This document shows positions 5,721-6,162 of a stretch of DNA of 8,059 nt, in pieces. Position numbers and translations under genes: made by a program. Under the pieces are notes generated by a model. The model made no database searches. It was given only the letters and a program-made list of their open reading frames with translations, and was not told the origin of the DNA. Origin of the DNA: a virus (taxonomy: Duplodnaviria > Heunggongvirae > Uroviricota > Caudoviricetes); IMG/VR virus record IMGVR_UViG_2529292735_000021, positions 1-8,059 of that record; one strand, given 5' to 3'. Numbering within the stretch: position 1 is the first letter of the stretch; every line of letters begins with the position of its first letter.

Positions 5721-5749
5721 TTGCCGGAGTAACAAAAAAGCGATAGATT
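5721..5749 (+). promoter_or_regulatory. Putative sigma70 promoter for the hok/mok mRNA (TTGCCG - 17 nt - TAGATT)
   Basis: -35 TTGCCG at 5721-5726, 17-nt spacer, -10 TAGATT at 5744-5749, about 150 nt upstream of the hok ATG, consistent with a long structured leader. The sequence block from about 5735 onward is duplicated in diverged form at 6751 onward. Confidence 0.4.
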
Positions 5750-5830
5750 ACGCGCGGGTGCCTTTCGGCTGATGGTCGGAGGGAATACCCGAAGGCCAGA
5801 TGTGGAAAGGCCCCGGAAAACACTTTTGTT
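5750..5830 (-). ncRNA. sok: Expected location of a Sok-type antisense RNA (antitoxin) opposite the mok start region; coordinates approximate
   Basis: Placed by analogy with plasmid R1 hok/sok, where the ~64-nt Sok RNA is antisense to the mok ribosome-binding region in the hok mRNA leader. I could not identify a convincing -10/-35 pair or terminator by eye, so this is positional inference only. Confidence 0.25.
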
Positions 5831-5984
5831 TAACCGAGGCCCTAACCATCTAACCTTAGCAAGTGATAGGTTAGCGCCTCCCCTAAAAAGGAGCAAGCGC
5901 TATGTCGCAAAAATCGCTTACGGCCATCACGTTCTGCGTGACGGTAATCCTCATCATCTGGATGCTGCACGGTTCGCTGTGTGA
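5772..5984 (+). CDS. mok: Putative mok-like overlapping reading frame (translational coupler for hok)
   Basis: ORF-track 70-codon ORF starting at ATG 5772 in the hok leader and overlapping the first ~27 codons of hok in another frame, which is the mok/hok arrangement of R1-type loci. The protein sequence itself is uninformative. Confidence 0.35.
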   Translation: MVGGNTRRPDVERPRKTLLFNRGPNHLTLASDRLAPPLKRSKRYVAKIAYGHHVLRDGNPHHLDAARFAV

Positions 5985-6042
5985 AATACGGATGAGCTTC
6001 TGGGGAGCGGAGTTTGCGGCGTTCTTACAGTGTAAGCAGTAA
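5902..6042 (+). CDS. hok: Hok/Gef-family type I toxin, 46 codons (small membrane peptide)
   Basis: ATG at 5902 with AAGGAG 9 nt upstream; hand translation MSQKSLTAITFCVTVILIIWMLHGSLCEIRMSFWGAEFAAFLQCKQ*: N-terminal hydrophobic helix, the family SLCEIR motif and a second Cys in the C-terminal AAFLxC segment (compare Hok ...SLCEIR...EVAAFMA and HokA ...SLCELH...ELAAFLACK as recalled). Missing from the ORF track because it is under 60 codons. Confidence 0.8.
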   Translation: MSQKSLTAITFCVTVILIIWMLHGSLCEIRMSFWGAEFAAFLQCKQ

Positions 6043-6051
6043 GGAAACCGC

Positions 6052-6073
6052 GACGGGGGAGTAATCCCCCGTC
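6052..6073 (+). other. 9-bp stem with GTAA (GNRA) tetraloop in the hok 3' UTR; candidate 3' fold-back (fbi-like) structural element of the hok mRNA
   Basis: gacggggga GTAA tcccccgtc is a perfect hairpin 10 nt after the hok stop; hok-family mRNAs are known to carry 3' elements that pair with the 5' end to keep the full-length mRNA inactive. Confidence 0.35.
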
Positions 6074-6127
6074 AATCGGTTGCCAAGGCTGGCCGAAGTG
6101 GCACCCTATCCCATCGACAGAAACAAT

Positions 6128-6162
6128 AAAACCCGCAGCGTAAAACTAGCGGGTTTTATTTT
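6128..6162 (+). terminator. Rho-independent terminator of the hok transcript (AAAACCCGC - 12-nt loop - GCGGGTTTT followed by ATTTT)
   Basis: Perfect 9-bp stem 6128-6136 / 6149-6157 followed by a T-rich tract; A-tract upstream means it could also act on the minus strand. Confidence 0.65.

What the first reader, a model, noticed from the sequence alone, without database searches (positions are those of the whole stretch)
5721..6162. Complete hok/mok/sok-type type I toxin-antitoxin locus missed by the ORF track
A 46-codon ORF with strong RBS encodes a textbook Hok/Gef-family peptide (hydrophobic N-terminal helix, SLCEIR motif, C-terminal AAFLxC). It has an overlapping mok-like frame, a plausible sigma70 promoter about 150 nt upstream, a 3' GNRA-capped hairpin and a strong terminator. 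Being under 60 codons it is absent from the ORF track. Within a prophage island such a module can stabilise the element or act in abortive infection.
Basis: partly seen in the sequence, partly recalled or inferred. Interest (0 to 1): 0.6.

Follow-up and report, generated by a model that had tools for sequence, protein, structure and literature searches.

The report
Prophage-borne Hok/Sok toxin-antitoxin locus

Summary
ORF 5902-6042 (46 aa, AAGGAG 8 nt upstream) matches Pfam HOK_GEF above its cut-off and PHROG 251 at E 2.5e-23. The same cassette occurs in about 1,500 of 5,426 complete E. coli genomes, where RefSeq already names it 'Hok/Gef family protein'. Phage P88 also carries it. The RNA anatomy matches plasmid R1 hok/sok. 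There is a ~400-nt mRNA from 5756. Its 5' end (tac) pairs with 6091-6106 (fbi). A GUAA-capped 3' hairpin (6052-6073) shows compensatory changes. An alternative tac/ucb fold appears once the 3' end is removed. An antisense promoter (TTGCTC-17-TAACCT) sits where R1's Sok promoter lies. Both folds are about 96% base-paired across 47 distinct homologues, against about 41% for shifted controls. One correction is needed: mok is not supported. The canonical mok AUG site reads AUC-UAA here. Only 8 of 47 distinct homologues have any upstream ORF that reaches the hok ribosome site, so the 70-codon frame belongs to this lineage only. No transcript or toxicity data exist for this copy. Verdict: an already known kind, of low interest. 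Possible mok-independent control is a modest lead.

The parts
5721..5749 (+). Candidate hok promoter: -35 TTGCCG (5721-5726), 17-nt spacer, -10 TAGATT (5744-5749).
   Evidence: Read from the sequence. ATTGC and TAnnnT are kept in copies from four different genomic contexts. It falls below the consensus scanner's 9/12 threshold.
5756..6158 (+). Predicted full-length hok mRNA (~403 nt).
   Evidence: The Rfam RF01794 model starts at 5756. The 5' end GGGTGCCTTTCGGCTGA is nearly invariant. MFE -170.8 kcal/mol, z -6.6.
5756..5770 (+). tac element. It pairs with fbi in the full-length RNA and with ucb (5802-5814) in the 3'-trimmed RNA.
   Evidence: helix 1, 95.2% of cells paired; helix 1, 99.5% paired.
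5802..5816 (+). ucb (upstream complementary box). It pairs with GAGGCC at 5834-5841 in the full-length fold and with tac in the trimmed fold.
   Evidence: Counts (helix 4; helix 1).
5836..5880 (+). Sok-target (sokT) hairpin, GAGGC...GCCUC. It forms only in the trimmed RNA. Its 5' arm holds the mok-SD-like GAGG. The canonical mok AUG position (5848-5853) reads AUC-UAA.
   Evidence: Tr fold; helix 6, 94.5% paired. Compared with R1 and hokC.
5772..5984 (+). It is lineage-specific and probably not a gene.
   Evidence: the ORF is closed or lacks a start codon in most homologues, and its ATG at +17 has no SD.
5872..5881 (+). Anti-SD segment UAGCGCCUCC, the 3' arm of sokT. It pairs with the hok SD and start region (5890-5902) in the full-length RNA and when the Sok-bound region is masked.
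   Evidence: helices 7 and 8 are 100% and 98.4% paired.
5888..5893 (+). hok Shine-Dalgarno sequence AAGGAG.
   Evidence: nearly invariant.
5902..6042 (+). hok coding sequence, 46 aa.
   Evidence: Pfam PF01848 at 30.1 bits, above the cut-off of 22. PHROG 251 E 2.5e-23. 14 synonymous against 2 non-synonymous variants among 40 close copies.
5868..5896 (-). Candidate Sok promoter: -35 TTGCTC (5896-5891, overlapping the hok SD), 17 nt, -10 TAACCT (5873-5868).
   Evidence: The -10 is invariant in 47 distinct sequences. Position and spacing match R1's TTGCGC-17-TATCCT. It scores 7/12 to consensus and is not called by the scanner.
5800..5860 (-). Predicted Sok antisense RNA, about 58-62 nt: a 12-nt single-stranded 5' tail, then a hairpin GGGCCUCGG...CCGGGGCC followed by UUUCC.
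   Evidence: Folded (-23.6 kcal/mol). The ends are inferred by analogy with annotated sokC (59 nt). No transcript data.
6052..6073 (+). Stable 3' hairpin capped by a GUAA (GNRA) tetraloop. It is the predicted 3' end-protecting stem of the trimmed mRNA.
   Evidence: helix 14: 100% paired, 4 of 9 pairs with compensatory double changes. The loop stays GNRA (GUAA, GCAA or GAAA) in most homologues.
6076..6089 (+). 3'-UTR segment that pairs with the Sok-target loop (5855-5868) in the full-length fold, masking it.
   Evidence: helix 6: 6 of 12 pairs with compensatory double changes. Both partners are variation hot spots.
6091..6106 (+). fbi (fold-back inhibition) element GGCCGAAGUGGCACCC, complementary to tac.
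   Evidence: Homology between different genomic contexts ends here.
6127..6158 (+). Intrinsic terminator: a 12-bp stem, then UUUUAUUUU. A-rich on its 5' side, so possibly bidirectional.
   Evidence: Kept in P2-type and island-type copies but not in Stx-phage copies.

Best explanation
This is a Hok/Sok-family type I toxin-antitoxin cassette. It is carried as accessory cargo next to ogr at the end of a P2-like prophage inserted just downstream of tRNA-Leu (leuZ).

Proposed mechanism:
1. A weak constitutive promoter (5721-5749) makes a ~400-nt hok mRNA starting at 5756.
2. As made, the RNA is closed. Its 5' end (tac, 5756-5770) pairs with fbi (6091-6106). ucb covers the GAGG region. The Sok-target loop is paired to 6076-6089. 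The hok ribosome site is paired to UAGCGCCUCC (5872-5881).
3. Slow 3' trimming back to the GNRA-capped hairpin (6052-6073) removes fbi.
4. tac then switches to ucb, the Sok-target hairpin (5836-5880) forms, and the hok ribosome site loosens.
5. A short, unstable antisense RNA (Sok, about 5860 to 5800 on the minus strand) pairs with the exposed target. It blocks expression and triggers decay.
6. If Sok supply stops (loss of the element, transcription shut-off by an infecting phage, or prophage induction), the stable trimmed mRNA is translated. The 46-aa Hok peptide inserts into the inner membrane and depolarises or kills the cell.

Shown here by computation: family membership of the peptide, the two alternative folds and their conservation, and the conserved promoter-like elements.

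Inferred from the R1 paradigm: 3' trimming, the existence and instability of Sok, RNase III decay, and toxicity.

Unlike R1, this subfamily has no conserved mok leader ORF. Coupling between Sok and hok translation most likely runs through the RNA switch and decay rather than through leader translation.
For: Protein:
- Pfam HOK_GEF 30.1 bits, above GA 22. PHROG 251 'MokW-like host killing' E 2.5e-23 over the full length.
- All seven residues reported as more than 80% conserved in Hok (M1, C16, T18, L30, C31, E32, E41 in R1 numbering; bioRxiv 10.1101/2025.08.07.668861) are present in the alignment to R1 Hok.
- 14 synonymous against 2 non-synonymous variants among 40 close copies.

Distribution:
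- 1,544 of 5,426 complete E. coli genomes have a match. It is annotated 'Hok/Gef family protein' next to ogr.
- The peptide is identical in phage P88 gp52.
- The same cassette, bounded at about 5735 to 6106, sits in P2-like, lambdoid/Stx and island contexts.

RNA:
- Rfam RF01794 matches 5756-5890 on the hok-sense strand at E 1.8e-7. The model has the same orientation on K-12 hokC, hokB and R1.
- The MFE fold closes tac with fbi, z -6.6. The trimmed RNA refolds to tac/ucb plus the sokT hairpin.
- Across 47 distinct homologues the full-length fold is 95.9% paired and the trimmed fold 96.1%, against 37-44% for slid controls. They have 23 and 21 pairs with compensatory changes, and 0/500 shuffles reach these values.

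Sok:
- TTGCTC-17-TAACCT sits at the position homologous to R1's Sok promoter, and the -10 is invariant.
- The Sok-target loop is the most variable segment, at 0.475 bits against 0.046 in the CDS. Its full-length pairing partner co-varies.

The R1 mechanism is taken from PMC9841398.
Against: - There is no transcript, processing or toxicity evidence for this copy or its subfamily.
- Both promoters are weak matches to consensus (8/12 and 7/12) and are not called by the scanner.
- Conservation of the Sok -10 and -35 is confounded, because they overlap a hairpin arm and the hok SD.
- The Rfam score (43.9 bits) is below the family's gathering score of 59. NCBIfam Hok models are also below cut-off.
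- tac is invariant, so tac/fbi and tac/ucb have no compensatory double changes.
- The predicted opening cost of the hok ribosome site differs only modestly between states: 13.5 kcal/mol full length, 9.2-12.7 trimmed, 14.0-15.9 with Sok bound.
- Without mok, it is not established how translation is activated.
Confidence: 0.85

Rival explanations
1. Canonical three-gene hok/mok/sok locus. The 70-codon ORF 5772-5984 is the mok leader, its translation is required to open the hok ribosome site, and Sok acts by blocking mok translation.
For: The ORF exists and overlaps the hok start. GAGG, the R1 mok SD, is conserved at 5836-5839. In R1, mok translation up to the hok SD is mandatory (PMC9841398).
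Against: - The canonical start position (GAGG + 8 nt) reads AUC-UAA here and is never AUG in 93 loci.
- The only in-frame starts, ATG at +17, GTG at +47 and TTG at +71, lie in the tac/5' hairpin region. The ATG has no SD.
- 39 of 47 distinct homologues have no canonical-start ORF reaching the hok SD, and ORF end points scatter from +91 to +280.
- P88, with an identical Hok, has a stop at about +102.
Confidence: 0.08
2. An inactive relic: a decaying hok locus that is no longer expressed or toxic. This has been suggested for most chromosomal hok copies of E. coli K-12.
For: Chromosomal hok loci are often reported inactive (cited in bioRxiv 10.1101/2025.08.07.668861). A clearly decayed second copy lies 700 nt away at 6749-6883. 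Some homologues are broken, for example L007, which is frameshifted to 15 aa. gpD of this prophage carries a 2-nt deletion.
Against: - The ORF, SD, promoter boxes and all pairing elements are intact.
- The peptide is identical in more than 60 viral contigs, with a 14:2 synonymous to non-synonymous ratio.
- Compensatory changes maintain the helices.
- 42 of 45 diverse Hok homologues tested were toxic (bioRxiv 10.1101/2025.08.07.668861).
Confidence: 0.07
3. Same molecule, different role. Rather than stabilising the prophage or aborting infections, the module is a lysis helper at induction, as shown for hokW-sokW of Stx2 prophage Sp5. There Sok disappears after DNA damage and Hok speeds phage release.
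For: PMC8621323: sokW RNA is lost after mitomycin C, HokW accumulates in a RecA-dependent manner, and phage yield halves without the locus. The cassette here sits at the late-gene end of a temperate phage genome, next to the late activator ogr. It is also carried by free phage genomes such as P88.
Against: HokW of Sp5 (51 aa, MKQQKAM...) is a different Hok cluster from this 46-aa peptide (primer sequences). No induction data exist for P2-like phages. R1 hok/sok has the opposite effect on phage T4 (cited in PMC8621323).
Confidence: 0.3

Closest known systems
hok/mok/sok (parB) of plasmid R1
   Same: - Small hydrophobic toxin with the conserved C, T, LCE and E positions.
- A ~400-nt mRNA with tac/fbi closure, ucb, a GAGGC/GCCUC target hairpin and a GC-rich 3' hairpin.
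- An antisense promoter at the same place with the same 17-nt spacing (PMC9841398).
   Different: - 46 aa against 52 aa, and 33% identity.
- C instead of Y near the C-terminus.
- No mok start codon.
- Rfam score 44 bits against 87 for R1.
- Carried on a prophage rather than a plasmid.
E. coli K-12 chromosomal hokC(gef)/mokC/sokC and hokB/mokB/sokB
   Same: Same family. The Rfam model covers the same sense-strand leader from +1 to the hok AUG. Sok is about 57-59 nt.
   Different: The K-12 loci score 118 and 110 bits and have annotated mok genes starting at GAGG + 8 nt. This locus scores 44 bits and has no such start.
Phage P88 (Xuanwuvirus, Peduoviridae) gp52 and the RefSeq protein WP_000078920.1
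   Same: Identical 46-aa peptide, 94-98% nucleotide identity across the whole cassette, and the same position after ogr.
   Different: The Sok-target loop sequence differs. In P88 the frame overlapping hok is closed by a stop at about +102.
hokW-sokW of Stx2 prophage Sp5 (E. coli O157:H7 Sakai)
   Same: A prophage-borne hok/sok, experimentally shown to be a type I TA system with a role in phage release (PMC8621323).
   Different: HokW is a 51-aa peptide of another cluster. The relative of the present cassette in Stx phages is a separate 46-aa gene downstream of lom, 82% identical at the nucleotide level.

Membership tests
Hok/Gef toxin family (Pfam PF01848) | Profile match above the curated gathering score. 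| tested here: met
   30.1 bits against 22, E 3.7e-7, residues 7-44. PHROG 251 E 2.5e-23.
Hok/Gef toxin family (Pfam PF01848) | A peptide of about 45-55 aa with an N-terminal hydrophobic helix and the conserved positions M1, C16, T18, L30, C31, E32 and E41 (R1 numbering). | tested here: met
   In the alignment to R1 Hok, the equivalents M1, C12, T14, L26, C27, E28 and E37 are all present. The conserved positions are taken from bioRxiv 10.1101/2025.08.07.668861.
Hok/Gef toxin family (Pfam PF01848) | NCBIfam Hok equivalog or subfamily models above cut-off. | tested here: not met
   HokA model 35.8 bits against 89, and Hok subfamily model 23.6 against 73. This explains the generic RefSeq name.
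Hok/Gef toxin family (Pfam PF01848) | Membrane depolarisation or killing on expression. | not testable with these tools
   Needs inducible expression.
[quoted passage not shown] | A long hok mRNA closed by 5'-3' tac/fbi pairing. | tested here: met
   5756-5770 pairs with 6091-6106 in the MFE fold. 95.2% paired in 47 homologues, with variation on one side only.
[quoted passage not shown] | An alternative tac/ucb fold and target hairpin after 3' trimming, with a stable 3' hairpin. | tested here: met
   The 3' hairpin has 4 compensatory pairs. The trimming itself is not testable.
[quoted passage not shown] | A cis-encoded antisense Sok promoter in the leader. | tested here: inconclusive
   TTGCTC-17-TAACCT is at the position homologous to R1 and the -10 is invariant. 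It scores only 7/12 to consensus, is not called by the scanner, and its conservation is confounded by overlapping elements.
[quoted passage not shown] | A short-lived Sok transcript of about 60 nt. | not testable with these tools
   Needs RNA end mapping or a Northern blot.
[quoted passage not shown] | A mok leader ORF that starts in the 5' arm of the target hairpin and reads through the hok SD. | tested here: not met
   AUC-UAA sits at the canonical site. There is no AUG there in 93 loci, and 39 of 47 distinct homologues lack any such ORF.
Rfam RF01794 (sok / hok leader) | Covariance-model score at or above the gathering score. | tested here: not met
   43.9 bits against 59, although E is 1.8e-7. 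The whole subfamily scores 42-48 bits, while hokC, hokB and R1 score 118, 110 and 87.

The most novel reading that the evidence does not exclude
This 46-aa Hok subfamily, found in P2-like and Stx prophages and in islands of Escherichia and Salmonella, may be a naturally mok-less hok/sok variant. In this reading Sok would control hok directly. When Sok pairs with the 5' arm of the target hairpin, it frees the 3' arm (UAGCGCCUCC, 5872-5881) to re-sequester the hok ribosome site. Combined with decay, this would replace control through translation of a leader ORF. The fast-diverging Sok-target loop, co-varying with its 3'-UTR partner, would then set specificity between the up to nine co-resident copies.
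Probability: 0.35. Interest if true: 0.45.

Novelty: already known. Interest (0 to 1): 0.15.

Why it matters
For annotation it matters little. The gene is already named in RefSeq and in phage family libraries, and enrichment of hok in prophages has been described. It does remind us that ORF tracks with a 60-codon floor hide type I toxins. It also shows that Rfam at gathering threshold misses this subfamily's RNA. The one point of wider interest concerns mok. If this abundant prophage subfamily works without mok, the textbook three-gene hok/mok/sok model would not be general. The cassette would then be a compact natural example of antisense control acting through an RNA switch alone.

Tried and rejected
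- The consensus promoter/terminator scan of 5600-6300 found no promoter on either strand. It found only a minus-strand 'terminator', which is the GNRA hairpin read backwards. Promoter assignments therefore rest on conservation and on positional homology to R1.
- Rfam at gathering threshold would have missed the locus, because the hit appears only in E-value mode. I checked that the oddly named 'sok' model lies on the hok-sense strand in K-12 and R1 too, so the + strand hit is not a contradiction.
- I first took the 'MokW-like' and hokW labels to mean identity with the studied hokW-sokW of Sp5. The primer sequences in that paper show a different 51-aa Hok, so I rejected this.
- I looked for substitutes for mok: near-cognate AUC/AUA starts after GAGG, a GUG-xxx-GGU-UAG mini-ORF in the target loop, and the conserved AUG at +17. 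None has an SD, none is universally present, and none reaches the hok SD.
- The thermodynamic test of the 'direct anti-SD switch' idea gave the expected direction but only 1-5 kcal/mol differences. I kept it as a hypothesis, not a result.
- The scan of species-representative genomes returned only 5 loci. Three are on contigs labelled Planococcaceae, Vagococcus and Xanthomonas; the first two carry peptides identical to the E. coli one, so contamination seems likely. This says little about taxonomic range.
- PADLOC gave no hit for Hok or its neighbours.
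Full report
**Setting.** The window holds the late-gene end of a P2-like prophage.
- It carries tail sheath and tube ORFs, a gpD homologue, and an Ogr/Delta zinc-finger gene at 5451-5711 (Pfam E 5.1e-14).
- These are followed by tRNA-Leu(UAA), tRNA-Cys, tRNA-Gly and pgsA.
- Homology to the empty site in E. coli K-12 begins at window 6988, at the 3'ETS-leuZ terminator (99.1% over 1,072 nt). Everything to the left of that point, including the finding, lies in the inserted element.

**The observation.**
- ORF 5902-6042 (+) encodes the 46-aa peptide MSQKSLTAITFCVTVILIIWMLHGSLCEIRMSFWGAEFAAFLQCKQ. 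AAGGAG lies 8 nt upstream of its ATG. It is absent from a 60-codon ORF list only because of that threshold.
- The peptide matches Pfam HOK_GEF above the gathering score (30.1 against 22 bits, E 3.7e-7). It matches PHROG 251 'MokW-like host killing' over its full length (E 2.5e-23). NCBIfam's narrower Hok models fall below cut-off.
- Aligned to R1 Hok and HokC, it keeps every position reported as more than 80% conserved in a survey of 1,264 Hok peptides (bioRxiv 10.1101/2025.08.07.668861).

**It is already known.**
- Megablast of 5700-6200 finds the cassette in 1,544 of 5,426 complete E. coli genomes. The best match is 97.8% identical, and RefSeq annotates it 'Hok/Gef family protein' (WP_000078920.1) directly after ogr.
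- Phage P88 (Peduoviridae, Xuanwuvirus) carries an identical peptide as gp52.
- More distant copies (73-82% nucleotide identity, all 46 aa) sit after lom or between J and the tail-fibre gene in lambdoid/Stx phages. Others sit after an L31 paralogue in a genomic island.
- In these other contexts the similarity runs from about 5735 to 6106, from the -10 box to the fbi element. This is the extent of one functional cassette.
- IMG/VR holds 321 relatives.
- A recent survey reports hok in about 80% of Enterobacteriaceae genomes and a four-fold enrichment in prophages (bioRxiv 10.1101/2025.08.07.668861).

**RNA anatomy.**
- Rfam RF01794 matches 5756-5890 on the + strand (43.9 bits, E 1.8e-7, below the gathering score of 59).
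- Despite its name, that model is built on the hok-sense leader from +1 to the hok AUG. It hits K-12 hokC (118 bits), hokB (110) and R1 hok (87) in the same orientation. The present subfamily scores 42-48 bits.
- This fixes the mRNA 5' end at G5756, 7 nt after TAGATT.
- The 403-nt RNA 5756-6158 folds to -170.8 kcal/mol (z -6.6).

In the full-length fold:
- 5756-5770 pairs with 6091-6106 (tac/fbi; 15 pairs interrupted by one bulged base).
- 5809-5816 pairs with the GAGG region at 5834-5841 (ucb).
- The Sok-target loop 5855-5868 pairs with 6076-6089.
- The hok SD and start region (5890-5902) pairs with UAGCGCCUCC (5872-5881).

When the RNA is cut after the 3' hairpin (at 6075-6085), it refolds:
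- tac pairs with 5802-5814.
- The GAGGC...GCCUC hairpin (5836-5880) forms with a 14-nt loop.
- The hok ribosome site keeps only 3-bp helices.

This is the R1 switch as described in PMC9841398.

**Comparative support.** I aligned 47 distinct full-length homologues and counted both folds.

| Fold | Cells paired | Slid controls | Pairs with changes on both sides | Shuffles reaching this |
|---|---|---|---|---|
| Full length | 95.9% | 37-44% | 23 | 0/500 |
| Trimmed | 96.1% | 39-43% | 21 | 0/500 |

- The clearest covariation is in the GNRA hairpin. Four of 9 pairs change on both sides, and the loop stays GNRA in most homologues.
- The long-range helix that masks the Sok-target loop also co-varies, at 6 of 12 pairs.
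- tac is invariant, as expected for a segment that must pair with two partners. Those two helices are therefore conserved but not proven by covariation.
- The tool's own caveat applies: related sequences can beat shuffles without structure. The slid controls and the per-helix double changes are the stronger evidence.
- The peptide is under purifying selection, with 14 synonymous against 2 non-synonymous variants in 40 close copies.

**Sok.**
- On the minus strand, TTGCTC (5896-5891) and TAACCT (5873-5868) are 17 nt apart.
- They lie at the positions of R1's Sok promoter, TTGCGC-17-TATCCT. The -10 is in the 3' arm of the target hairpin and the -35 is at the hok SD.
- The -10 is invariant in all 47 sequences and fits the TANNNT motif that T1TAdb uses for Sok promoters (PMC8594479).
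- An RNA from about 5860 to about 5800 would have a 12-nt free 5' tail and one long hairpin followed by UUUCC (-23.6 kcal/mol). This resembles the annotated 59-nt SokC.
- The promoter match is weak (7/12) and the scanner does not call it. Its conservation overlaps other constrained elements, and I have no transcript data. The Sok gene is therefore inferred, not shown.
- One extra hint comes from variability among close copies. The target-loop segment 5847-5867 is by far the most variable part (0.475 bits per column against 0.046 in the CDS). Its full-length partner 6076-6090 is next. That pattern is expected if antisense specificity diverges between copies, and genomes carry up to nine places matching the cassette.

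**mok.**
- In R1 and in annotated mokC, the AUG lies 8 nt after GAGG in the 5' arm of the target hairpin (PMC9841398). The window has AUC-UAA there (5848-5853).
- In 93 loci with 36 distinct leaders, none has an AUG at that site. 68 loci have no ATG/GTG/TTG in either overlapping frame, apart from a GTG 4 nt before the hok ATG in six of them.
- Among 47 distinct mRNAs, only 8 have any canonical-start ORF that reaches the hok SD. Upstream ORFs end anywhere from +91 to +280.
- The window's 70-codon ORF starts at an ATG 17 nt from the 5' end, with no SD. It is closed in P88 despite 94% identity.
- The Hok survey explicitly left Mok unanalysed (bioRxiv 10.1101/2025.08.07.668861). I found no statement either way for this subfamily.

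**How hok might be controlled without mok.**
- Masking the Sok-complementary stretch (5803-5860) in the trimmed RNA brings back the anti-SD helix of the full-length form.
- The computed cost of opening the hok ribosome site is 13.5 kcal/mol (full length), 9.2-12.7 (trimmed) and 14.0-15.9 (trimmed with Sok bound).
- The direction fits a direct switch, but the differences are modest. I treat this as a hypothesis.

**Function.**
- The peptide and RNA design argue for a working post-segregational or stress-triggered killer. Which benefit the phage draws from it is open.
- R1 hok/sok stabilises plasmids and reduces T4 plating. hokW-sokW of Sp5, a different Hok cluster, loses its antitoxin on induction and doubles phage release (PMC8621323).
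- Its position next to the late activator ogr, and its carriage in free phage genomes, fit either retention of the prophage or help with lysis.

**Verdict.** The finding is real and correctly identified, apart from mok. It is an already annotated, very common element. Interest is low. The possible mok-independent regulation is the only lead worth an experiment.

Noticed in passing
window 6749-6883: A second, decayed hok relic. 6749-6841 matches the hok -10 box and leader (5734-5837) at 74% identity with gaps (E 3e-9). It is followed directly at 6848-6883 by a piece matching hok codons GSLCEIRMSFWG. An internal deletion has therefore removed the Sok promoter, the target hairpin and the hok N-terminus. 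The relic lies inside the inserted element, since the host junction is at 6988. E. coli 14EC001 has the same relic.
   Followed up: partly
window 4089-5249 (minus strand): An AT-rich 386-aa ORF (32% GC, against 54% in the tail genes) sits between gpD and ogr. It has no Pfam, PHROG, PADLOC or NCBIfam hit. E. coli 14EC001 has a different 487-aa hypothetical gene at the same spot. This looks like a variable cargo slot of P2-like prophages and a possible defence-gene site.
   Followed up: partly
window ~3574-3577 (gpD homologue, ORFs 2722-3603 and 3515-3958): The gpD-like tail gene is split into two overlapping frames by a 2-nt deletion in an A-rich run, relative to E. coli 14EC001. The prophage may be defective, or this may be a homopolymer sequencing error.
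   Followed up: partly
window 5847-5867 and 6076-6090: Among otherwise more than 90% identical hok cassettes, the Sok-target loop is the most variable segment: 17 variants of the 30-nt stretch starting at GAGGC, which includes the loop, in 93 loci. It co-varies with the 3'-UTR stretch that masks it in the full-length RNA. This suggests diversification of antisense specificity between co-resident copies.
   Followed up: partly
window 6234-6515 (minus strand): A small Cys-rich protein with an N-terminal hydrophobic, signal-like segment (93 aa as annotated in RefSeq). It matches PHROG 27544 (unknown function, E 1.6e-59) and converges on the same terminator as hok.
   Followed up: no
window 6988-7056: The prophage or island junction falls exactly at the 3'ETS-leuZ small-RNA/terminator region downstream of tRNA-Leu. 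The integration site therefore abuts a known regulatory RNA sponge locus.
   Followed up: no
L013, L014, L016 (genome-contig hits): Contigs labelled Planococcaceae MAG and Vagococcus sp. carry Hok peptides identical to the E. coli one, and a contig labelled Xanthomonas pisi carries a 74%-identical relative. Enterobacterial contamination of those assemblies seems likely.
   Followed up: no
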